A stretch of 64,000 bases of DNA from Chromatiaceae bacterium (GTDB taxonomy: Bacteria; Pseudomonadota; Gammaproteobacteria; Chromatiales; Chromatiaceae), in assembly GCA_024235395.1 (NCBI GenBank), contig JACKMK010000001.1:58445-122444 (forward strand). The letters are read 5' to 3'. The notes under the pieces are model-generated. The model made no database searches. It worked only from the letters and a program-made list of their open reading frames with translations, and was not told where the DNA came from. Shown here in pieces: positions 4,659 through 19,642 of this stretch. How positions within the stretch are numbered: position 1 is the first letter of the stretch; each line of letters opens with the position of its first letter. Position numbers and translations under genes: made by a program.

Positions 4659-6197
4659 CTAGCCCCCGTGCCCCAACGAATCGTCCGGTCCACGTCGCAC
4701 AGTGCGTACCATCAGATACACTTCGACGATCGCGAACAGGGTGTACAACAGGATGAAGCCGGTCAGCGAAAAGGTCAGGTAGGACACGCTGTGTGCGGAT
4801 GCCGACAGCCAGGTCGGCAATATCTCGTAGACCGCCCAGGGCTGGCGGCCGACCTCGGCGACGATCCAGCCTGCCTCGCCGGCCAGCAGCGGGACCGGGA
4901 TCATCCAGACCCCCCAGCGTAGAAAGCGTTTTCGCCTTTGCAGATCTTTGCGCATGCTGTGAATCGCCGCGAGCAGAAAATACACGAGCATCAACAGTCC
5001 CAGGCCGACCATCAGACGGAACGACCAGAAGACCAGTGGTACGTTTGGCACGACGTCGCGCGCCGCACGTTCGATGTCTGCGCGGGACGCCTGCCCGACA
5101 TCGTTGTCCGGCGCATAACGCTTCACCAGAAAGCCGTAACCGAGATCGTGTTGATGGGCCCTGAATTGTTCCAACGCCTGCGCATCCTGCGGATTTCCAC
5201 CGAGCGCCTGCAGCGCCTCGACTGCAGGAATGCCGTTGCGAATACGCTGTTCAGCCTGTTGCTGCAGTTCTTTCAAGCCGGCAATCGGGGTATCCAGGGT
5301 GTGGGTGACCAGCGGCGTCAGCAAGTAGGGGATCTGCAGCTCCCAGTCATTATTCCTGGTCGTTGTATCCGGCCATGCGGCGACGTTGAACGCCGCCGGT
5401 GGTCGCTCGGTCTCCCACATCGCCTCCATCGCCGCCAGCTTGGTCGGCTGTGCGTGACCACCGACGAATCCCAGCGCATCGCCCAGGGTGATGACGCCCG
5501 CCGTCGCGAGCACACCGAACAGTGCCGACATCCGGAAAGAACGCAGCGCGAACTCGTGGTGTCGTCCACGTAGCAGGTACCAACTACTTATCGCACAGAC
5601 GAAAACCGCAGCGGTGACGTAACCGGAGAGGCTCGTGTGGACGAACTTCGCCTGCGCATTGGGGCTGAAAAACAGCTCGCCGAGGCTTTGCAGTTCGAGT
5701 CGCATGGTCTGCGGATTGAATGCGGCACCGTGTGGTGCCTGCATGAAACTGTTCGCCACCAGGATCCACAAGGCCGATAGATTCGCGCCCAGAGCGACCA
5801 ACCAGGTCACCGCGAGGTGCTGCCCTTTCGACAGCCTGTCCCATCCGAACACCATGAGCCCGATGAAGGTGGACTCCATGAAAAACGCCATCAGGCCCTC
5901 GAGTGCCAGTGCCGCACCGAAGATGTCGCCGACGAAACTCGAAAAGAACGACCAATTGGTACCGAACTCGAACTCGAGTGTCAGGCCGGTCGCAATCCCA
6001 AGGGCGAAGTTGATCAGCAGGATCTTGCCCCAGAACCGGGTCATGGTCCGATAGATACGGTGCCCCGTCGTGTAGTACACGGTCTCCATCGCCGCGAGGA
6101 GAAAGGACAGCCCCAGCGTCAGCGGGACGAACAGGAAGTGAAACATCGCAGTGACAGCGAACTGCAGCCGCGACAGGTCCACGACACCGTCAGTCAT
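4659..6197 (-). CDS. cydA: Cytochrome bd ubiquinol oxidase subunit I
   Basis: LSRLQFAVTAMFHFLFVPLTLG, EFEFGTNW, QPTKLAAME, GWIVAEVGRQPW; long Q-loop. Confidence 0.97.
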   Translation of the reverse strand: MTDGVVDLSRLQFAVTAMFHFLFVPLTLGLSFLLAAMETVYYTTGHRIYRTMTRFWGKILLINFALGIATGLTLEFEFGTNWSFFSSFVGDIFGAALALEGLMAFFMESTFIGLMVFGWDRLSKGQHLAVTWLVALGANLSALWILVANSFMQAPHGAAFNPQTMRLELQSLGELFFSPNAQAKFVHTSLSGYVTAAVFVCAISSWYLLRGRHHEFALRSFRMSALFGVLATAGVITLGDALGFVGGHAQPTKLAAMEAMWETERPPAAFNVAAWPDTTTRNNDWELQIPYLLTPLVTHTLDTPIAGLKELQQQAEQRIRNGIPAVEALQALGGNPQDAQALEQFRAHQHDLGYGFLVKRYAPDNDVGQASRADIERAARDVVPNVPLVFWSFRLMVGLGLLMLVYFLLAAIHSMRKDLQRRKRFLRWGVWMIPVPLLAGEAGWIVAEVGRQPWAVYEILPTWLSASAHSVSYLTFSLTGFILLYTLFAIVEVYLMVRTVRRGPDDSLGHGG

Positions 6198-6480
6198 ACT
6201 GTCCCTACCTCAAAGCTCGGTCCCGACATGTACATGCCGCTGCAACATCTGCGCCATGGCGCACCACACCTTTCTCCGGAGGCCGTTGACGCGACGAATC
6301 GATGTTTGCCCGGTTTGCGTTTGTCCAATTGCACCAGCATGTCGGACCCGCTGGTGGTTGATTTGCACCCGGCATACAGACTGTCGCACTCGCCGGTGCC
6401 GCACGGGCGTATGCCGCGGCACGGCGCCCACCCATCATGAGGTGGACACCGTCACTAGCAGGCGTGCAGGCTGTATCGCC

Positions 6481-7755
6481 TCAGAGCTGGCGGATCAAGG
6501 TGCTCAGCTGCGCCTCGGCGCGATGAAACTCAGGCAGGGCGCTCGCTGGCGACTGCGCCTTGTCAACCTGCTTGTCGAGACCCTTGATCAGGGACGCGAG
6601 CTGCTGCAGTTCGTCCTTCCTGTCCGGCGCGACCTGCTGAATGGCCGTATCCAGGTAGCTGCCGGCCTCCGCCAGATCCACCTTGGCCGCCGCCGGATCG
6701 TGCGCCTGCACGCTGTCGATGCGCGCGTAGGCGAGGTACAGCTTCGCCTCGATCAACTCCTTCTTGCCCGCGCCTTCGGCGCGCAACCGTTGCCAACCCG
6801 TACTGATGTACTCGGCCGACCGCTCGGACAAGGCGGTAAGACGCTGCCAGGCATTTTCGATACGCGATGAGATGGAGGTGTCGTTGGTATCGATGGCGGT
6901 GTGCAGATCCCGCACTTCGCCAACCAGGTCCGAGACCGCCTTGCGGCTGACCTCGTCGTCACTCCTGGCCGCCCGCTCCAGGAGCTTGACGGCCGCATCC
7001 AGATCGGCCTTGGCCTGATCGCGCTCGCCGAGTTTCGATTCCTGCCAGGCCCTGTAGATCGCCGCCTTTGCCTGGGTGAGCGGCGACTCGAACGACAGCG
7101 AGACAAACACCACGTTGTCTTCCGCCTGGGCCAGCACCTGATCAGCCGTTTTGCTGTCGTTCTTCGTGAGCGCCTGCTTGGCCTGGTCGACGAGTTCACG
7201 CGTGCTGCCCAAGGGCAGGTCGGCCTCGACATACATCAGCGCGTCGTCCACCTCCTGCAACTGGCGCGAAGCCTGCTCCTTGTCGCCTTTCTTGAGCGCC
7301 TGTTTGGCGTTGTCCAGATGCGCCTTGGCCACGGACGTCGGCACATAGTCGACCAACTCGTCGAGCGAGGTGTAGATCGGTATCAGGTCCGGCAGGACCT
7401 CGCGGGTATCCTCGTACTCCAGGTGCTTGCGTGCGACCCAGATCCGGTCCTTCACCTTGGTCGTTGGCAGCGCCGCCTGAATGATGTCGAGCAGTTGCTC
7501 GGATTTGGCCAGCTGCGCCGATGCTGCGGCCACATCGGCGTGCTCGCCCTGCAGTGCGCCGCGCGCCTCGGCGATATGCCGCAGTACCTTGACCGCCGCC
7601 GACGAGATCGCGTGTTCGTCCTGGATGGTGATCTGGCGTCCGGGCAATACGCTGATTTCCTCCTGGATCGCGCGATCGGCGTAGCTCGGGCCGCTGACCA
7701 GCAATGCGCCGGCGAGCGCCGCGACAATGGGCTTGATGGTGAATCGATGAAACAT
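6481..7755 (-). CDS. YfdX-family secreted helical protein
   Basis: Signal peptide followed by repeated helical units (LRHIAEARGAL, AHLDNAKQALKKGDK). Family assignment by recall. Confidence 0.7.
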   Translation of the reverse strand: MFHRFTIKPIVAALAGALLVSGPSYADRAIQEEISVLPGRQITIQDEHAISSAAVKVLRHIAEARGALQGEHADVAAASAQLAKSEQLLDIIQAALPTTKVKDRIWVARKHLEYEDTREVLPDLIPIYTSLDELVDYVPTSVAKAHLDNAKQALKKGDKEQASRQLQEVDDALMYVEADLPLGSTRELVDQAKQALTKNDSKTADQVLAQAEDNVVFVSLSFESPLTQAKAAIYRAWQESKLGERDQAKADLDAAVKLLERAARSDDEVSRKAVSDLVGEVRDLHTAIDTNDTSISSRIENAWQRLTALSERSAEYISTGWQRLRAEGAGKKELIEAKLYLAYARIDSVQAHDPAAAKVDLAEAGSYLDTAIQQVAPDRKDELQQLASLIKGLDKQVDKAQSPASALPEFHRAEAQLSTLIRQL

Positions 7756-12992: not shown

Positions 12993-13346
12993 GAGCCCTC
13001 TCCACGGTATCGTTATAAGCAGTTCGATTTTTCGCGGTGACGGGGCAGAAGGGTTTTCAGCGTGCCGAATTCGGCTGCACGCATTCCAACTTCGCCGCAT
13101 GAGAATCCGTTTCTCGGCAGGACACTCGCGGTGCTGTGTTAGCGGCCAGCACCCGCGAAACTTAACGAATATGACTATCTGGTCCAAGCGGCCTTTTTGC
13201 CGGGCGACCGGTAGTTTCGCAGCACGATCCGGCGCACGCGATCGAGCGCGGACGCGCCCGATTCCCATGTAAATACTGCCTATACTTGTCATAGGTTGGT
13301 GAGCCTGGCAGCAGCGCTCACATGGAACGACTGCGGAGCTTCGGCG

Positions 13347-14201
13347 ATGAGTGACCGACTGGACTATCCGGCATTCTACGAACTGGTGACCGAGTTGGTG
13401 TCCAGTTCGGCCACCAGCACCCTCTTCGGGCGCACCGATACCAATCACTCTGTGATCATCGGCCTGGACGGCGGCACGATCGTCTGCGTCCGATGTGGCC
13501 CGAAACGCGGCCTGGCCGCGATCCATGCCTTGCGTTCGATGCAGTGGGGAACCTTCAGGGTCGACGATGCGTTGGTGGAGCTCAGTTCGCCGACTTTGCC
13601 GCCGACTGCGGAACTGGTCGCGGCGCTGCACCCCGGCGCTACCGTTTTCGAAGACACGCCCGGCGACGACAGCGCGGATCCCGCACAACAAAGCGATAAC
13701 CACAGCGCGGAGGCGAAGCTGCTGTGTGACCTGCTCTCGCGCTACGTCGGCCCGGTCGCCCCGGTACTGTGTTCAGAGGAGATCAAGGCCGTCGGCGGGC
13801 TCGACCATCTGGGCAAACTCGATCTGGTTCTGGGCAAGCTGGCCCGCGAGATCGATGACGCCGGCGAGGCCAGTGAGTTTGTCTTGCTGGCTCAGCGTGA
13901 GCTCGCACACCGCTTCGCCCCCCCGCCGTCGACCGGGCCCGCGGACACCGTCACACCACCGTCGAAGGCGTTGCTCGATCCGACCCAGGCGGCCAAGGAT
14001 CTCTGCGGACTGGTCAGCGATTATCTCGGTCCTGTCGCCGAGATCCTCTGCCAGGAGAAGATTGCCGAAGTCGGTGGACTGAACGGCCGACACGAGTTGG
14101 ACTCGGTCATCCGGCACCTGGCTCGCGAGATCGACGAACAGCGCGAAGCCGAGCAATTCCTCAGCCGCGCGCGTGCGCATTTCGCTGCCGCCATGACCTG
14201 A
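13347..14201 (+). CDS. Hypothetical protein: PATAN/DUF4388-like N-terminus plus two helical repeats
   Basis: N-terminal ...[18 protein letters not shown]...; repeats [13 protein letters not shown]...LAREID and [13 protein letters not shown]...LAREID. Confidence 0.6.
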
Positions 14202-14263
14202 CCTCGTGCCTCGGCCGACACGCAGCGGGCCGCCAGCCGCTGCGACTCAGCCGCTGTGGGCCT

Positions 14264-15169
14264 TCACTCGCCGCCCTTGCGCATCCTTTTCATCAGTTGC
14301 GCGAAACTCCTTCGCAGCAGTTCCACTGATCGCGCCAGGTCGCCGATCTCATCGTTGCGCTCGATGTTCATAGACCGGTCGAGTTCACCCTTGGCAACAG
14401 CATGTGCGGTCTCGGTGATCTTCAGCAGTGGAGATATCAGGTAGTGTCGCACCAGCAGATTGATCGTCATGAATACGATTGCAAACATCAATGTCAACAA
14501 TCCCGTCGCAACCAGGCTGCGCTTCAACGCCAAGGCGTCGACGTTGGCGATCGGTACGCCGACGAGTTCGACACCGACCACGTCACCGATCCGGTAGTTG
14601 TAACCAGCGCCTCGGCCATAGTCTGCGGTGATCTGGATCGGTACCTGATCGGGGTCACCGTGGCAACGCAGACACCCCTTCGCACTGACGATCGGCGCGC
14701 TGCGCACCAGCATCTGTTGTCCGCCCAGCAACCCCTCGACCCGCAGTTCATCGAGTTGCTTGTCCGCGCGGAAACGTGACAACAGCTCGGATTCCAGCGC
14801 CTCGGGACGGTTGTCGGGATTCAAGGGGTTGTCCGACACGTTGCGTATGGAATAGCTTCCCTGCATGCCCTTGAAGTTCTCGGCGACGCGCGATACCGCG
14901 ACGATGCCGGAGAAGCCGGCGGTGTGGAACAACCGTTGTTTCATGAAGTAGGGTCGCAGATCCTTCGCCACGTAACCTTTGATCGACTTGACCATATCGA
15001 CCAGGAGCCCGAGTTGGGTGCTGGACTGCGCATACACCTCGTGCCGTGTGTAGTAGTAGATCGTCGGAGCGCTGATCAGGATGCTCAGCAGATAGATTCC
15101 AAGGATCGAAAGATTGAATCGCCGCGTGATGCTGCCCCGCGCGGCTGCGGGTGTGGTTTGTGTCGTCAT
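14264..15169 (-). CDS. DUF3365 (Tll0287-like) heme c sensor domain plus HAMP, no output domain
   Basis: SDNPLNPDNRP, CLRCH heme c motif, two TM helices, HAMP (RNDEIGDLARS). Confidence 0.85.
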   Translation of the reverse strand: MTTQTTPAAARGSITRRFNLSILGIYLLSILISAPTIYYYTRHEVYAQSSTQLGLLVDMVKSIKGYVAKDLRPYFMKQRLFHTAGFSGIVAVSRVAENFKGMQGSYSIRNVSDNPLNPDNRPEALESELLSRFRADKQLDELRVEGLLGGQQMLVRSAPIVSAKGCLRCHGDPDQVPIQITADYGRGAGYNYRIGDVVGVELVGVPIANVDALALKRSLVATGLLTLMFAIVFMTINLLVRHYLISPLLKITETAHAVAKGELDRSMNIERNDEIGDLARSVELLRRSFAQLMKRMRKGGE

Positions 15170-15304
15170 GGCTGGCCCTGCCTTTTCCCTTTAGACATCA
15201 GGCGCCCGCATCTATGCCCGGACTCACTGTCATGGCGCCTCATTATTGTTAGCGCCCCGCTGAGCCCTTTTCTTTAGTACCTAAAAGGACCAGGTATCCG
15301 GGAA

Positions 15305-15640
15305 CAAACGGACACGCGGTCAATACAGGGCCGATCGATTGGCCATGCCGAGGCTCAGGCCGCTTGTATCGAAGGCGCGTGGCTTGACTTGCGCAGCTGT
15401 GCTTTTCAACATGCCAACGCGCGGCCGGCACTTCGAGCGGTTCCATGGCCTGGCGATGCCGGGGTTCTGGAACGCTCCGGGGTTACCCCGGGGATGCCTG
15501 GTTCAGTCTGACAATGCATTGCCGGTACACCACTGCGCTGCACGCAGATGCTGTACCGGCGGGACGAGAGTGGTCGAAGGCCGGTCGCGCGCCCGACACC
15601 ATGCAACGCGGGCATCCGGTCGTCTCGCGTGTGGGGTTTG
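15305..15640 (+). ncRNA. Putative structured ncRNA upstream of the RT (msr/msd-like candidate)
   Basis: Nested inverted repeats read by eye: long hairpin 15341-15450, hairpins 15477-15491 and 15521-15560, closing stem 15492-98/15611-17, terminal repeat 15312-18/15626-32. Confidence 0.55.
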
Positions 15641-15663
15641 ACGTGACTGCTCATCAGATCAAA

Positions 15664-16965
15664 ATGCGGCGACTGATGCTCTCCATCCAGTTCGGCAGAT
15701 GGGATCGGGAGTCGCTCGGCGACCGCTTGCGCAGGGCGCTGGATGGCGGGCCACCCGACCCCGACCGGCTTGCCGCGAGGCTGCTGTTCCACTTCCCCCC
15801 GGGGCATCCACCGTCTCGATCGCAGCTGGCCGGACTGCTGGCCGCCGACCGCGAGTTGGCAGCTGCCTCGCAGTCAGGTGGCAAGGGGTTCGAGGCACGG
15901 ATCGTACTCGACACCTCGGTGATGCAGGCGCCGACCGGGCACTTCTCGACCCTGCCGCTGCCGACCTTGGATCATGCGAGAGACCTGGGCCTTTGGTTGG
16001 GTCTGAATCAGCGCGAGCTGGCATGGTTCGCCGACTGCGAATCGCGACAGACGTCTGTACGCAATCCCAAGCTACATCATTACCGCTACCGCTGGCTCGC
16101 CCGACGTAGTGCGCCGCCACGTCTGCTGGAGATACCCAAGGCACGACTGAAGCTCATGCAGCGACAGGTCCTGCACCACCTGCTCGACTGCGTTCCGCCG
16201 CACCCCGCCGCTCATGGTTTTCGCCGTCATCGCTCCTGCCTCAGCTTCGCGACGCCACATCTGCAAAAGCCTGCGGTGCTGCACATGGATCTGGAAGATT
16301 TCTTTCCGTCTATCCCGGCGCCGCGCGTCGGCGCACTGTTTCGCCGCCTCGGTTATCCCCCGGGGGTCGCGCGTGTCCTGCAGGGACTGTGCACCCACGC
16401 GGTCGCACCTGCCCTGGTCGGCGCCGAGTTTGATGCGTTGCCCTGGGAGACGCGACGGCGGCTACAGGCACCGCACCTGGCGCAAGGTGCCCCCAGCTCG
16501 CCGGCGATCGCGAACCTGTGCGCCTGGCGGCTCGACTGCCGTCTGCAGGGTCTTGCCGACCGGTTCGAGCTCGATTACACCCGTTATGCGGACGACCTGG
16601 CGTTTTCGGGACCCGCGAGCCTGCTGCGCCGCGGCCCTTTCGTTCAGGCGCTGATCGGGGCAATCGCCGCCGAGGAGGGGTTCCGCATCAACCATCGCAA
16701 GACGCGTCTGAACACACAGGCGCAATCACAACGGCTCGCCGGGGTCGTGGTCAACCAACGACCCAACCTGCAGCGGCGTGACTACGACCGCCTGAAAGCC
16801 ACGCTGCACAACTGTGCCCGCTTCGGGCCCGAGGGACAGAACCACGAAGGCAGGCAGGATTTCAGGGCGCATCTCGCCGGACGGATCGCCCATGTGGCCT
16901 GGTTGAATCCGGACCGGGGAGCCCGCCTGAAGGCCTTGTGGGCACGGATCTCCTGGCCCGACTGA
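15664..16965 (+). CDS. Retron-like RNA-directed DNA polymerase (reverse transcriptase)
   Basis: AAHGF, DLEDFFPSI, QGAPSSP, YADD, GFRINHRKTR, QRLAGVVVN; organization resembles myxobacterial Mx162-type retron RTs. Start is ATG 15664 or GTG 15643; the track ORF from 15445 runs through the putative RNA. Confidence 0.9.
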   Translation: MRRLMLSIQFGRWDRESLGDRLRRALDGGPPDPDRLAARLLFHFPPGHPPSRSQLAGLLAADRELAAASQSGGKGFEARIVLDTSVMQAPTGHFSTLPLPTLDHARDLGLWLGLNQRELAWFADCESRQTSVRNPKLHHYRYRWLARRSAPPRLLEIPKARLKLMQRQVLHHLLDCVPPHPAAHGFRRHRSCLSFATPHLQKPAVLHMDLEDFFPSIPAPRVGALFRRLGYPPGVARVLQGLCTHAVAPALVGAEFDALPWETRRRLQAPHLAQGAPSSPAIANLCAWRLDCRLQGLADRFELDYTRYADDLAFSGPASLLRRGPFVQALIGAIAAEEGFRINHRKTRLNTQAQSQRLAGVVVNQRPNLQRRDYDRLKATLHNCARFGPEGQNHEGRQDFRAHLAGRIAHVAWLNPDRGARLKALWARISWPD

Positions 16966-16970
16966 ACAAG

Positions 16971-16989
16971 CGGCGGCGCGTCGCCGCCG
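16971..16989. terminator. Hairpin between the convergent RT and iorB-like genes
   Basis: CGGCGGCG-cgt-CGCCGCCG, 8-bp stem, no U-tract. Confidence 0.4.
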
Positions 16990-16994
16990 GTGCC

Positions 16995-19169
16995 TCAGGC
17001 CGCGCGCAGGTCAGAAGGCTGTAGCGGCACCCTGCGGATGCGCCGACCCGTTGCCGCGAAAATCGCGTTGAGCACCGCCGGCGCCGCGACCGCAATGGTC
17101 GGTTCACCGACGCCACCCCAGAAACCGCCGGACGGCATCACGATCGATTCCACCTGCGGCATTTCGGCGATCTGCATCGAGCGATAGGTGTCGAAGTTCG
17201 ACTGCTGCACGCGGCCGTCGCGTATCGACACACCGCCATACAGCAGCGCGCTCAGGCCGAACATGAATGAACCCTCGATCTGCGCCTCGATCTGTTGCGG
17301 GTTGACCGCGTGACCCGGATCGGTCGCGGCGACAATGCGATGGATCTTCAAGCGGCCGTCGTCCACCGACACCTCGGCGCAGGCCGCAACATGGCTGCCG
17401 AATGCCTTGCACACCGCGAGGCCGCGATGCACACCTGCCGGCACGGGCTCGCCCCAGCCGATACGCTCGGCAACCGCATTCAATACCGCGAGACTGTGGG
17501 GATGCTGCCCCATGAGCTTGCGCCGGAATGCCAGCGGATCGACGCCCGCGGCATGCGCCAGCTCTTCGATGAAGCACTCCAGGTAGATCGCATTCTGGTT
17601 GATGTTGACGCCCCGCCAGAAGCCGGGTGGCACAGGTGGGTTGCGCATCGCATGGTCGACCAGCAGGTTGGGGACCGTGTAGCTGATCGCGTGATCACCG
17701 TCCGGCAACAGGCCCTGGAAGGTGATCATGTCCGCGCCGCCTTTCAGCGCGTTGGGCCTTACCCCGGCCAGGATGGACTGTCCCGAGATGCGCACCCGCA
17801 GCCCGATAAGGTCGCCGTTCGCATCCAGCGCGCCACGCAGGCGCGCCTGGGTGATCGGATGATAGGCACCATGCCGCATGTCCTCCTCGCGCGTCCACAG
17901 CAGCTTGACCGGGGTGCCCGGCAACTGCTTGGCGATCTTGACCGCCTGGCTGACGTAGTCGCTGAAGCCGCGCCTTCCGAAGCCACCGCCGAGATGCAGC
18001 TTGTAGACCTCGCATTGGGTTGCCGGCAATCCCGCCGCCACGGCGGTCGCATCGAGCGCGGCCTCGCCATTCTGCGTCGGACACCAAACCTCGCAACGCT
18101 CTGCGGTCCAACGGGCGGTCGCGGTCATCGGCTCCATCGTGGCATGGTGCTGGAACGGATAGCTGTAGACGGCCTCCACGGTCTGCGCGGCGCCGGCGAA
18201 TGCGGCATCGACATCACCCGCCTGGTTGCCGATGAACGCCTCGGCGGCGTCCAGGCCTTCGACGAGCATGCGCGCGATCGATTCATCATCGACCGTCGCA
18301 TTGGGTCCCTCGACCCAGGTGATCGGCAACGCGTCGAGCGCGGTCTTCGCCTGCCACCAGGTATCGGCCACGACCGCGACCGCATCGTCGTCGACGCGGA
18401 CGACGGCGCGTACGCCGGGCATCTTGCGCACGGCCGCTTCGTCGAATCCGCCGAGCCGGCCGCCGAACACCGGGCACGCCTTGATCGTCGCGTTGAGCAT
18501 CCCCGGCAGCTGCAGATCCGCAGCGAACACCTGACGGCCGGTGAGCTTGTCGGCGGTATCGAGACGCTTGAGCGGCTTGCCGGCGATCGTCCAGTCCTTC
18601 GGGTCCTTGAGTTCGACACTGACCGGTGGCACCAGCTTGGCCGCCGCGGCGGCGACCGCGCCATAACGGGTCGTGCGACCGGTCGGGGCATGGGTAATGA
18701 TCCCGGCGACCACGCTGCACTCCTCGACCGGCACGTCCCAGGCCTCGGCGGCCGCCTCGATGAGCAAGGTACGAGCCAGCGCGCCACCCTCGCGAACATA
18801 CTGGTGACTGCCCCGAATCCCGCGGCTGCCGCCGGTCGCAAAGCTGCCCCAGACGCGGTTGCGCGCCAGGCTCTGGCCCGGCGTCGGGTACTCGGTACTC
18901 ACCTTGGACCAGTCGCACTCGAGTTCTTCGGCGACCAGTTGGGCGAGGCCGGTCAATGTACCCTGGCCCATCTCCGAACGGGCAATGCGGATGATCACCC
19001 GGTCATCCGGCTCGATCACGACCCAGGCATTCACCTCGCGGGTTGCTCCCTCGGCGCGCGCATCGGCGTCGACCAACGGCAGGAACAGCCCGATCGACAG
19101 GCCGGCGCCGGCGCTCGCCGTGCCGATCAGGAAATCGCGGCGCGAAATTTTCACCGGCCCCGTCTTCAT
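16995..19169 (-). CDS. Xanthine dehydrogenase-family molybdopterin subunit (isoquinoline 1-oxidoreductase beta-like)
   Basis: Tat-like SRRDFL, RSEMGQG, GGGFGRR, GGVGEP. The start overlaps the stop of the upstream 2Fe-2S gene. Confidence 0.92.
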   Translation of the reverse strand: MKTGPVKISRRDFLIGTASAGAGLSIGLFLPLVDADARAEGATREVNAWVVIEPDDRVIIRIARSEMGQGTLTGLAQLVAEELECDWSKVSTEYPTPGQSLARNRVWGSFATGGSRGIRGSHQYVREGGALARTLLIEAAAEAWDVPVEECSVVAGIITHAPTGRTTRYGAVAAAAAKLVPPVSVELKDPKDWTIAGKPLKRLDTADKLTGRQVFAADLQLPGMLNATIKACPVFGGRLGGFDEAAVRKMPGVRAVVRVDDDAVAVVADTWWQAKTALDALPITWVEGPNATVDDESIARMLVEGLDAAEAFIGNQAGDVDAAFAGAAQTVEAVYSYPFQHHATMEPMTATARWTAERCEVWCPTQNGEAALDATAVAAGLPATQCEVYKLHLGGGFGRRGFSDYVSQAVKIAKQLPGTPVKLLWTREEDMRHGAYHPITQARLRGALDANGDLIGLRVRISGQSILAGVRPNALKGGADMITFQGLLPDGDHAISYTVPNLLVDHAMRNPPVPPGFWRGVNINQNAIYLECFIEELAHAAGVDPLAFRRKLMGQHPHSLAVLNAVAERIGWGEPVPAGVHRGLAVCKAFGSHVAACAEVSVDDGRLKIHRIVAATDPGHAVNPQQIEAQIEGSFMFGLSALLYGGVSIRDGRVQQSNFDTYRSMQIAEMPQVESIVMPSGGFWGGVGEPTIAVAAPAVLNAIFAATGRRIRRVPLQPSDLRAA

Positions 19170-19642
19170 CACGCCCTCCCACGCCGATTCAATTCGGCGG
19201 CCAGGTGGATGCCACGGCGAACCCGGTTGAAGGTCCCGCATCGACAGATGTTGGTGATACGGGCATCGATATCCGCATCGCTCGGCTGCGGATTGTCGGC
19301 CAGCAGGGCGGCCGCGGCCATGATCATCCCGGGTTGGCAATAGCCGCACTGCGGCACGTCGAGTTCCGCCCAGGCCCGTTGAACCGGGTGGCTGGCGTCT
19401 GCCGACAGGCCCTCGATGGTCACGACCTGCTGCGACGGCTGCACCGCGCCGACCGGGACCACGCAGGCGCGTGCCACCTCACCGTCGATGTGCACCGTGC
19501 AGGCACCACAGACCCCTATCCCGCAGCTGTACTTGGTGCCGGTCAGGCCCAGTTGCTCGCGCAGCACCCACAACAGCGGTGTCGAGGCGTCCGCGTCGAC
19601 CTCGACGGGCTGCCCGTTGATATTCAGTTTGGCCATGGCCAC
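19169..19642 (-). CDS. (2Fe-2S) subunit (isoquinoline 1-oxidoreductase alpha-like)
   Basis: [29 protein letters not shown]. Confidence 0.93.

What the first reader, a model, noticed from the sequence alone, without database searches (positions are those of the whole stretch)
15643..16965. Orphan retron-like RT with altered retron signature motifs and no adjacent effector gene
Seen: intact YADD and QGAPSSP. The position of the retron NAxxH motif reads FATPH, and the VTG motif reads LAG (QRLAGVVVN). A ~95-aa N-terminal extension precedes the core. Established: characterised retrons are usually tripartite (ncRNA, RT, toxic effector), and these two motifs are linked to branched priming and msr recognition. 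Here the upstream gene is divergent and the downstream iorB-like gene is convergent, so no effector is co-oriented. Inference: either a two-component RT/ncRNA system with a distinct product or priming mode, or the N-terminal extension or the cDNA itself is the effector.
Basis: partly seen in the sequence, partly recalled or inferred. Interest (0 to 1): 0.82.

Follow-up and report, generated by a model that had tools for sequence, protein, structure and literature searches.

The report
Stand-alone clade-11 retron (ncRNA plus RT)
This is an intact copy of an already catalogued kind of bacterial retron, made of a reverse transcriptase and its own template RNA with no partner toxin gene. It is a new example of a known puzzle, because nobody knows what these effector-less retrons do, and it is not a new kind of system.

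Summary
An intact 440-aa retron-type RT lies at 15643-16965 (GTG start). It has YADD and QGAPSSP, FATPH where Ec86 has NATPH, and LAG where Ec86 has VTG. It carries a ~100-aa N-terminal extension and has no co-oriented neighbour.

None of this is peculiar to this locus.
- **Classification.** The RT scores best, at full length, on the PADLOC models RT_other and RT_outgroup (477 and 455 bits, against 282 for RT_XIII). "Outgroup" is the label used for RT clade 11 of Mestre et al. [quoted passage not shown]
- **Motifs.** The altered motifs are family-wide: [Y/F][V/A]xPH with H in 120/120 homologues, and L-A-G with G in 119/120.
- **ncRNA.** A ~175-nt ncRNA (15418-15591) lies directly upstream. It has an 18-bp a1/a2 stem, invariant opposed G residues (15437 and 15573), msr hairpins and an msd hairpin. 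It accompanies the RT in 98 of the 102 loci I scanned. Covariation is strong: 22 of 31 pairs carry compensatory changes, and 0 of 500 shuffles reach this.
- **Partner gene.** No neighbouring gene family recurs in more than 6 of 102 loci, and no fused effector domain recurs.
- **N-terminal extension.** It is a conserved five-helix bundle with no fold match in the PDB.

Verdict: a new member of a known kind, of modest interest. Its function is still untested.

The parts
15384..15412 (+). Conserved promoter-like element: -35 TTGACT (15384-15389), 17-nt spacer, -10-like CAACAT (15407-15412). It would place the transcription start at about the first base of a1.
   Evidence: In the alignments of 8 loci, the 6 that cover this block cleanly have TTGAC here and a seventh (L003) has a variant TTGGA. 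A conserved nAnnAT/CT block follows at a fixed distance from a1. Letters read. The generic sigma-70 scan did not call it because the -10 is weak, so function is inferred.
15418..15591 (+). Retron ncRNA (msr-msd), about 175 nt.
- a1: 15418-15436
- invariant unpaired G 15437, the candidate branching G
- msr stem-loop 1: 15440-15473
- near-invariant msr hairpin CUCCGGGG-nnA-CCCCGGGG: 15475-15493
- msd hairpin: 15520-15561
- invariant G 15573, opposed to G15437
- a2: 15574-15591
   Evidence: - Folding: MFE -102.9 kcal/mol, z = -5.2 against shuffles.
- Covariance model R1: finds it upstream of the RT, on the same strand, in 22 of the 24 sources searched and in 76/80 metagenome loci.
- 22-sequence MAFFT alignment: 31 pairs, 96.4% paired, 22 pairs with compensatory changes, 0/500 shuffles as high; slid controls 36-45% paired.
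- Invariant columns; pair table.
- No Rfam family matches.
15643..16965 (+). Retron reverse transcriptase gene, 440 aa, GTG start, stop at 16963-16965.
   Evidence: - Pfam RVT_1.
- PADLOC RT_other 1.6e-143 and RT_outgroup 6.3e-137, both full length.
- The closest solved structures are all retron RTs, by sequence (Ec86 4.5e-34) and by fold (Ec86 E 5e-21).
- The start is set by alignment to 11 homologues.
- dN/dS is 0.15 in the least saturated homologue pair.
15643..15873 (+). N-terminal family-specific domain (residues 1-77): a five-helix bundle. It is followed by a partly disordered linker (residues 78-110, nt 15874-15972).
   Evidence: AF2 on the full protein gives block pLDDT 82-91 over residues 1-70 and helices 3-15, 22-33, 40-50, 59-68 and 70-77. 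The same fold appears when modelled alone. It has no Pfam hit and no PDB fold match. Invariant or near-invariant residues are R9, G18, W20, R31, L33, L43, A45, R46 and L47. dN/dS is 0.17-0.24.
15973..16962 (+). RT core (fingers, palm, thumb), with:
- region X, SFATPH, at nt 16243-16260
- motif A, DLEDFF, at about nt 16288
- QGAPSSP at nt 16483-16503
- YADD at nt 16585-16596
- region Y, RLAGVVVN, at nt 16732-16755
- a ~26-aa insertion relative to Ec86 between residues 252 and 279
   Evidence: In 120 homologues: H206 120/120, YADD Y/D/D 120/120, Q281/G282/P284 120/120, G367 119/120, N371 120/120.

Best explanation
The locus is a complete, self-contained retron of the catalogued stand-alone lineage, RT clade 11 of Mestre et al. 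2020 (labelled 'outgroup' in their ncRNA model names and in PADLOC). One promoter (-35 at 15384) drives a ~175-nt msr-msd RNA (15418-15591) and, on the same transcript, a 440-aa RT that starts at a weak GTG codon (15643).

Inferred mechanism, by homology with characterised retrons:
- The RT recognises the near-invariant msr hairpin (15475-15493).
- It primes from the 2'-OH of the invariant unpaired G15437 at the top of the a1/a2 stem.
- It copies the msd region from about 15572 leftwards through the 15520-15561 hairpin.
- The product is a short branched msDNA, roughly 50-80 nt, that stays bound to the RT.

The family-specific N-terminal helical bundle is most likely a structural or binding module of this RNP and not a toxin. 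No effector is encoded in cis anywhere in the family.

The cassette behaves as an accessory, horizontally moving module. I therefore favour a defence-type or sensor role that uses an unlinked partner, or none (about 55%), over a domesticated housekeeping role (about 20%).

Shown: RT family membership, the ncRNA and its structure, the absence of a conserved neighbour, and purifying selection. Inferred: msDNA synthesis, the branch point, and the biological role.
For: **Classification.**
- PADLOC RT_other 477 bits and RT_outgroup 455 bits, both full length, against RT_XIII 282 bits.
- The same ranking holds for relatives from Actinomycetota, Burkholderiales and Planctomycetota. A control RT (L007) flips to RT_XIII at 527 bits.
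[quoted passage not shown] Clade 11 has two msr/msd families, named OutgroupA and OutgroupB, with no recurrent accessory gene; clade11-A is 41% Pseudomonadota.

**Retron fold and motifs.**

**ncRNA.**

**No partner.**
- ORF clustering over 102 loci gives at most 6 loci per neighbour family.
- Nine gene-called loci have unrelated neighbours.
- No fused domain recurs.
- There is no SWIM protein, the type XIII effector hallmark, anywhere in this genome.

**Accessory behaviour.**
- The RT is present in 6 of 24 genomes of the genus. Identities are only 51-58%, no higher than to other genera.
- The site 3' of iorB differs in every congener examined.

**Selection.** dN/dS is 0.15.

**Copy number.** There is a single RT and a single ncRNA copy in the genome.
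Against:
- I could not run Mestre's own OutgroupA/B covariance models or place the RT in their reference tree. Clade-11 membership therefore rests on the PADLOC models plus the naming link given in PMC13712802.
- Mestre et al. describe clade 11 as essentially restricted to Actinobacteria, whereas this branch is mostly Gammaproteobacteria. The 2026 SPIRE survey does report 41% Pseudomonadota in clade11-A.
- In 7 of the 10 loci with gene calls or, for the window, my own domain searches (9 gene-called homologue loci plus the window), the neighbours are housekeeping or metabolic genes and not defence genes. This weakens the defence reading.
Confidence: 0.82

Rival explanations
1. Domesticated, non-defence function. 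The RT-ncRNA pair is kept for a cellular role such as regulation, DNA repair or stress response, with no effector because none is needed.
For: - Neighbours are housekeeping or metabolic genes in the window and in L029-L034.
- Purifying selection acts on the whole protein.
- Mestre et al. raise this possibility for clade 11 and clade 2.
- No toxin is present anywhere in the family.
Against: - The distribution within the genus is patchy: 6 of 24 genomes.
- RT identities do not track taxonomy.
- The genomic sites differ between loci, and here the site is a variable spot.
- The cassette sometimes lies in restriction-modification or TIR neighbourhoods.
- A housekeeping function would be expected to be more uniformly present and syntenic.
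Confidence: 0.2
2. A retron-derived system with a different priming mode or product, as the first reader proposed on the basis of FATPH and LAG.
For: - N of NAxxH and V/T of VTG are replaced family-wide.
- There is a ~26-aa insertion relative to Ec86 between residues 252 and 279.
- A family-specific N-terminal domain is present.
- The msr hairpin is family-specific and absent from Rfam.
Against: - The RNA has the canonical retron layout, with an a1/a2 stem capped by two invariant opposed G residues.
- H206 and G367, the residues said to be most conserved in retron RTs, are kept in 120/120 and 119/120 homologues.
- 'ATPH' is identical to Ec86.
- The closest folds are all canonical retron RTs.
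Confidence: 0.07
3. The N-terminal extension is the effector, giving a single-protein retron analogous to the RT-TIR, RT-protease and RT-Toprim fusions.
For: It is conserved across the closer homologues and under purifying selection. No other effector candidate exists in cis.
Against: - It is only about 77 structured residues, all helical.
- It has no Pfam match and no significant PDB fold match (best E 3.2, probability 0.11).
- Its conserved residues are Arg, Trp, Gly and Leu, not a catalytic-looking set.
- Known retron fusion effectors are C-terminal enzymatic domains (Table 1).
- More distant family members align only from residue ~105, so the domain is not universal.
Confidence: 0.08
4. 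A tripartite retron whose effector was lost at this particular locus, leaving a decaying remnant.
For: The locus lies at a synteny break, so a rearrangement could have removed a neighbour.
Against: - Homologues lack a conserved partner everywhere.
- The RT is intact with all catalytic motifs.
- The ncRNA scores as high as any family member on the covariance model, at 160.9 bits.
- The family is under purifying selection.
Confidence: 0.03

Closest known systems
Stand-alone (msr-msd)-RT retrons of RT clade 11 (Mestre et al. 2020, PMC7736814). These are 'clade11-A/B' with ncRNA models 'OutgroupA/B' in the SPIRE survey (PMC13712802), and PADLOC models RT_outgroup (PDLC03740) and RT_other (PDLC02949).
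   Same: - The best match is full length and clearly separated from the next model.
- There is no accessory gene.
- A dedicated structured ncRNA lies upstream of the RT.
- The family occurs in Pseudomonadota, Actinomycetota and Planctomycetota, as reported for clade 11.
   Different: Nothing tested differs. Two things were not tested: which of the two published ncRNA families (A or B) this RNA belongs to, and its exact position in the reference tree. This branch is centred on sulfur-oxidising Gammaproteobacteria (Chromatiales and Thiodiazotropha-like), whereas the 2020 paper stressed Actinobacteria.
Retron-Eco1 (Ec86), type II-A3: the structurally best-characterised retron (PDB 7v9u, 7v9x, 7xjg).
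   Same: - RT fold (Foldseek E 5e-21) and sequence (4.5e-34).
- Shared motifs: ATPH, DLEDFFPS, QGAPSSP and YADD.
- The gene order is ncRNA then RT, and an a1/a2 stem encloses msr and msd.
   Different: - Ec86 RT has no ~100-aa N-terminal domain and no insertion at 252-279.
- Its motifs read NATPH and VTG.
- It works with a nucleoside deoxyribosyltransferase-like effector encoded in cis; here there is none.
Type XIII retrons (RT clade 10; Mx162, Mx65, Sa163, Ne144).
   Same: It is the second-best RT model (282 bits). Both RTs have an N-terminal extension of about 100 residues before the core, since RT_XIII profile positions 1-104 are left unmatched.
   Different: - The N-terminal regions are not alignable.
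- Type XIII carries SWIM/winged-helix and HEAT/ARM partner genes. None is adjacent here, and no SWIM domain exists in this genome.
- The ncRNA model R1 does not hit the type XIII-like control locus L007.
Retron-Eco5 (Ec107) branch of clade 2: the other effector-less 'orphan' retron lineage.
   Same: It has a stand-alone ncRNA-RT architecture and an unknown function.
   Different: It is a different RT clade: the RT_Ec107-like model scores only 171 bits. Its RT is about 310 aa with no N-terminal domain.

Membership tests
Retron (RT plus msr-msd ncRNA) | [quoted passage not shown] | tested here: met
   YADD is present. SFATPH aligns with Ec86 NNATPH. H206 is invariant in 120/120 homologues, while N is replaced by F/Y family-wide. 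All top sequence and fold matches in the PDB are retron RTs.
Retron (RT plus msr-msd ncRNA) | [quoted passage not shown] | tested here: inconclusive
   The motif reads LAG and aligns with Ec86 VTG. G367 is kept in 119/120 homologues, but V becomes L (114/120) and T becomes A (93/120). The residue called most conserved is kept; the literal triplet is not.
Retron (RT plus msr-msd ncRNA) | Adjacent ncRNA closed by a1/a2 inverted repeats, with msr stem-loops and an msd hairpin | tested here: met
   The ncRNA spans 15418-15591. The a1/a2 stem is 18 bp, and the covariation statistics are (22 of 31 pairs compensatory, 0/500 shuffles). It is present upstream of the RT in 98 of the 102 RT-family loci scanned.
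Retron (RT plus msr-msd ncRNA) | Conserved branching G at the 5' end of msr, opposed by a G at the 3' end of msd | tested here: met
   G15437, unpaired and immediately 3' of a1, and G15573, immediately 5' of a2, are invariant in 22/22 sequences. Use of G15437 as the branch point is inferred, not shown.
Retron (RT plus msr-msd ncRNA) | Production of branched multicopy single-stranded DNA (msDNA) | not testable with these tools
Retron (RT plus msr-msd ncRNA) | Cognate effector gene or fused effector domain (tripartite architecture) | tested here: not met
   No neighbour family occurs in more than 6 of 102 loci, and no extra domain recurs. This feature is also absent from the recognised orphan lineages (clade 11 and the Ec107 branch), so it does not exclude retron membership.
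Mestre RT clade 11 ('outgroup') stand-alone retrons | RT groups with the clade-11 reference sequences | tested here: met
   This was tested by proxy. PADLOC RT_outgroup scores 455 bits over profile positions 12-407 of 407 and RT_other 477 bits, against 282 bits for the next clade. The control L007 goes to RT_XIII. The link between 'outgroup' and clade 11 comes from PMC13712802. A tree with the 1,928 reference RTs was not possible because the supplementary files are not held.
Mestre RT clade 11 ('outgroup') stand-alone retrons | ncRNA matches the published OutgroupA or OutgroupB covariance model | not testable with these tools
   The models are not in Rfam (no match) and are not available here. 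I built my own model, R1, instead.
Mestre RT clade 11 ('outgroup') stand-alone retrons | No recurrent accessory gene | tested here: met
Type XIII retron | RT of clade 10 with SWIM/winged-helix and HEAT/ARM partner genes | tested here: not met
   RT_XIII is only the second-best model. There is no SWIM domain in the whole genome, although the search detects SWIM in 13 of 14 control genomes. No such neighbours are present.
Defence-associated RTs of the UG/Abi group (DRT) and group II intron RTs | Best match to a DRT/UG or group II intron RT model | tested here: not met
   All 25 top PADLOC hits are retron RT models. NCBIfam gives Drt2 at 23 bits and group II intron RT at 34 bits, far below their cut-offs.

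The most novel reading that the evidence does not exclude
Clade-11 retrons are genuinely effector-free. The RT, with its private N-terminal helical domain, plus the short msDNA would be the whole system. It would act either through the cDNA/RNP itself or by recruiting unlinked host proteins. The latter might include TIR-domain proteins, which sit directly beside the cassette in three independent lineages and of which this genome has eleven. This would be a mode of retron action different from the toxin-sequestration model established for tripartite retrons.
Probability: 0.2. Interest if true: 0.7.

Novelty: new member of a known kind. Interest (0 to 1): 0.3.

Why it matters
Characterised retrons are generally explained as a reverse-transcribed DNA that holds a toxic effector in check until phage infection. 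The stand-alone lineages (clade 11 and the Ec107 branch) do not fit that model, and their role is an open question.

This locus does not open the question for the first time, because the lineage was catalogued in 2020 and again in 2026. It does supply a clean, intact and compact test article of about 1.6 kb: promoter, ncRNA and RT. The report also adds, for this branch:
- an explicit covariation-supported ncRNA structure with a candidate branch point;
- a predicted fold for the N-terminal domain;
- a 102-locus neighbourhood survey showing that no partner is conserved.

If the cassette makes msDNA efficiently, its short msd hairpin and effector-free nature could also interest retron-based DNA-production tools.

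Tried and rejected
- **Rfam** scan of 13000-19000 at E <= 1 found no family, so the ncRNA had to be modelled de novo.
- **Sequencing runs.** There is therefore no check of transcription or of msDNA-derived coverage.
- **Empty-site test.** The one congener with the HAMP-gene orthologue (G007) loses synteny right after that gene. Four congeners with iorAB lose synteny right at the iorB stop and carry different DNA beyond it. No clean 'cassette-absent' allele exists, so insertion boundaries and target duplications could not be defined.
- **Fold search of the N-terminal domain alone** gave only non-significant EF-hand-like and other helical matches. These were rejected as evidence.
- **Fused effectors.** I looked among longer homologues (533-647 aa). 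Six of seven carry no extra Pfam domain, and the seventh has a Clp_N that is probably a merged gene call. Most are likely upstream over-extensions, like the 506-aa call here.
- **Type XIII-like trans effector.** No SWIM domain is present in the genome.
- **Mestre 2020 supplementary tables** are not held, so no direct look-up of reference IDs or ncRNA models was possible.
- **The 506-aa ORF from 15445** was considered as the true gene and rejected, because homologues start at the position of 15643 and the extension overlaps the conserved RNA.
- **Genome-collection scan** returned only 8 loci. I therefore used the single metagenome scan.
Full report
**1. What is in the sequence**

The + strand carries an open frame ending at 16965. 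The longest version starts at ATG 15445 (506 aa), and the public protein cluster for this sequence is also 506 aa (P0001). Alignment with 11 homologous genes puts residue 1 at the GTG at 15643. Gene calls were available for 9 of those 11.

- The protein has Pfam RVT_1.
- YADD, QGAPSSP, SFATPH and RLAGVVVN lie at the stated places.
- Against solved structures, the best sequence matches are retron RTs only. The Ec86 alignment pairs NNATPH with SFATPH and KVTGLVIS with RLAGVVVN.
- Query residue 147 aligns with Ec86 residue 46, so there is an N-terminal extension of about 100 aa.
- The upstream gene, 14264-15169 (-), is a Tll0287-like/HAMP sensor. The downstream gene, 16995-19349 (-), is an IorB-like molybdopterin subunit. 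Neither is co-oriented with the RT.

**2. Which RT it is**

Against the PADLOC panel, the protein matches RT_other (477 bits) and RT_outgroup ('retron', 455 bits, profile positions 12-407 of 407). The next model, RT_XIII, scores 282 bits, and every other retron type scores lower. NCBIfam gives only sub-threshold hits to retron, group II intron and Drt2 models.

The panel discriminates well:
- Relatives from a Solirubrobacterales, a Burkholderiales and a Planctomycetota MAG give the same ranking.
- A 33%-identical RT from locus L007 flips to RT_XIII at 527 bits.

Mestre et al. 2020 divide retron RTs into 11 clades. [quoted passage not shown] The 2026 SPIRE survey says clade 11 has two msr/msd families, lists their covariance models as 'OutgroupA' and 'OutgroupB', and reports no recurrent accessory gene. 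It gives clade11-A as 41% Pseudomonadota. 'Outgroup' is therefore the working label of clade 11, and this RT is a member by the best proxy available. I could not use the reference tree itself because the supplements are not held.

**3. The 'altered' motifs are the family consensus**

In 120 homologues (50-63% identical, nearly all 430-450 aa, full-length coverage):
- Region X reads [Y/F][V/A]x[P]H, with H in 120/120.
- Region Y reads L-A-G, with G in 119/120.
- YADD and QGAP[T/S]SP are invariant at the key residues.

Mestre et al. name H and G as the most conserved residues of these two motifs. This copy is, if anything, closer to Ec86 than its relatives are: 'ATPH' and 'DLEDFFPS' are identical to Ec86.

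**4. The ncRNA**

Eight homologous loci share a conserved non-coding block of about 200 nt directly upstream of the RT, in otherwise unalignable flanks. In the window it consists of:
- a promoter-like TTGACT-N17-CAACAT (15384-15412);
- an 18-bp a1/a2 stem (15418-15436 with 15574-15591);
- an unpaired G at 15437;
- a variable msr stem-loop (15440-15473);
- a near-invariant hairpin CUCCGGGG-nnA-CCCCGGGG (15475-15493);
- an msd hairpin (15520-15561);
- a G at 15573 facing G15437.

The window RNA folds at -102.9 kcal/mol, z = -5.2.

A covariance model built from the eight sequences finds the RNA upstream of the RT, on the same strand, in 22 of the 24 sources I searched first. These include Burkholderiales, Planctomycetota and Actinomycetota. 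The two misses are L007, the type XIII control, and L016, a distant relative with 34% identity. The model also finds the RNA in 76 of 80 metagenome loci. Three of those four misses have the RT at or near the contig's 5' end. There is only one copy in the window's genome.

On a MAFFT alignment of 22 sequences, made independently of the model:
- 31 predicted pairs are 96.4% paired.
- 22 pairs show compensatory double changes.
- None of 500 column shuffles reaches any of the five measures.
- Sliding the partners drops pairing to 36-45%.

The window itself carries a compensatory change, CUUCGA/UCGAAG where most relatives have CUCCGA/UCGGAG. G15437 and G15573 are invariant in 22/22.

This is the canonical retron RNA layout, including the two opposed G residues that mark the branch point and the start of reverse transcription. 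It argues against a different priming mode. Rfam has no model for it.

**5. No partner gene**

- Across 13 loci, the RT is the only shared ORF.
- Nine homologous loci with gene calls and Pfam annotation have unrelated neighbours. These include Sox genes, pilins, ribosomal proteins, acyl-CoA dehydrogenases and mutS. Each has a 270-365-bp gap upstream of the RT that holds the RNA.
- After the metagenome scan, I clustered all ORFs within 4.5 kb of the RT in 102 loci, of which 66-68 have at least 2 kb of flank on a given side. The most recurrent neighbour family occurs in 6 loci, and those are locally syntenic relatives.
- In the exhaustive representative search, the family is large: 1,177 clusters at E <= 1e-30, and more than 150 at E < 1e-82. 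Lengths centre on 430-470 aa.
- Of seven longer outliers, six carry no extra Pfam domain and one has a Clp_N.
- The genome has no SWIM-domain protein, the hallmark of the effector of the nearest typed clade, XIII.

The effector is therefore absent from the whole family. It was not lost at this locus.

**6. The N-terminal extension**

AlphaFold2 with a 64-sequence alignment gives mean pLDDT 88.5. It models a five-helix bundle (residues 1-77, block pLDDT 82-91 over residues 1-70) and a linker that is disordered at 93-102, followed by the RT.
- The whole model's best PDB matches are all retron RTs, led by Ec86 (E 5e-21) and followed by Eco2, Eco7 (Ec78), Ec83 and Eco8.
- Modelled alone, the domain keeps the same helices (pLDDT 82). 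It has no significant fold match (best E 3.2) and no Pfam hit.
- Its conserved residues are R9, G18, W20, R31, L33, L43, A45, R46 and L47.
- dN/dS for the domain is 0.17-0.24, against 0.06-0.12 for the core. Only the L027/L035 pair has unsaturated dS (0.77), with an overall ratio of 0.15.
- More distant family members align only from residue ~105.

I read it as a lineage-specific structural or binding module and not an effector. This is an inference.

**7. Genomic behaviour**

- The RT is found in 6 of 24 genomes of the same genus and 1 of 13 other genera of the family.
- Identities among congeners (51-58%) are no higher than identities to Thiodiazotropha-type copies (59-60%).
- The copies lie in different contexts.
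- In the window, the cassette fills the gap between two blocks that are each conserved in congeners but never adjacent. Synteny with G007 stops just past the HAMP gene. Synteny with four iorAB-bearing congeners stops at the iorB stop, and the DNA beyond differs in each.

This is accessory-gene behaviour. It leans towards a defence-type or selfish role over a housekeeping one, although most neighbourhoods are not defence islands.

**8. Comparison and novelty**

It works like a retron and passes the testable membership criteria. The exceptions are the literal VTG triplet and the cis effector, and the recognised orphan lineages also lack the effector.
- It is filed under clade 11.
- It is not type XIII: the RT model is second best, the SWIM partner is absent, and the ncRNA differs.
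- It is not of the Ec107 type: that model scores 171 bits.
- It is not a DRT or a group II intron RT.

No paper in the library reports a function for clade 11. The experimental retron census names no clade-11 result in its text.

What this report adds is an explicit, covariation-supported RNA structure with a candidate branch G, a fold prediction for the N-terminal domain, and a 102-locus survey that finds no partner.

**9. Limits**

- msDNA synthesis, the branch point and any phenotype are inferred.
- Assignment to ncRNA sub-family A or B, and tree placement, remain to be done with the published reference sets.

Noticed in passing
L028:3919-5661 (-), L035:4800-5636 (+), L062:4962-6380 (+) (= L063); own genome: TIR_2-domain genes lie directly beside the ncRNA-RT cassette in three independent lineages. 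One is divergent upstream, one co-oriented upstream, and one co-oriented 82 nt downstream; the last also has a TPR-S sensor domain. TIR is the fused effector of type XII retrons. The window's genome has 11 TIR_2 ORFs, none adjacent to the retron, so chance adjacency in TIR-rich genomes is not excluded. My rough estimate is about 0.35 adjacencies expected against 3 seen.
   Followed up: partly
window 15445-15642: The longest ORF (506 aa), which is also the length of the public protein cluster representative P0001, over-extends the RT gene by 66 codons through the conserved ncRNA. The homology-supported start is the GTG at 15643.
   Followed up: yes
RT start codons in window, L001-L003, L017-L020, L027-L035: Sixteen of 17 family members start the RT at TTG or GTG rather than ATG. 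In four loci (L028, L031, L032, L034) the start codon follows the a2 arm almost immediately. This suggests deliberately weak, possibly structure-coupled, translation of the RT from the ncRNA transcript.
   Followed up: no
L017 (G032:C9), RT at about 5413-6732: This copy, from another genus of the same family, has one in-frame TAG inside an otherwise well-conserved RT (85% identical to L027). It is either a recent pseudogene or a sequencing error.
   Followed up: no
window about 16966-16995 and congeners L126-L129: The DNA just 3' of iorB is different in every congener examined, so it is a variable spot. The retron occupies this spot in the window's genome.
   Followed up: partly
L027 and L035: Two Thiodiazotropha-type loci carry the cassette at the same site, upstream of Cupin_3-mutS, but with different upstream genes. 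L027 has HsdR, DUF3800 and unknowns; L035 has an SNF2 helicase and a TIR protein. This looks like a small defence-island-like variable region. DUF3800 is the effector domain of type VII retrons.
   Followed up: no
L029, L032, L033, L113: An acyl-CoA dehydrogenase gene lies within 0.3-2.5 kb of the RT in four loci, in varying orientation. This is probably residual synteny among related genomes and not a functional link.
   Followed up: no
L007 (Candidatus Thorarchaeota MAG, JBHLRJ010000036.1): A type XIII-like retron RT (PADLOC RT_XIII, 527 bits) sits on a contig binned to an Asgard archaeon. This is either a bacterial contig mis-binned or a rare archaeal retron.
   Followed up: no
window 15249-15273 (+): A terminator-like hairpin plus T-run lies on the + strand, with no + strand gene upstream of it. 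It sits in the non-conserved spacer between the HAMP gene start and the retron promoter.
   Followed up: no
window 15341-15374: The companion first-reader note proposes hairpins that use 15341-15347 and 15369-15374. These lie upstream of the conserved -35 box and are not conserved in homologues. They are probably not part of the RNA.
   Followed up: partly
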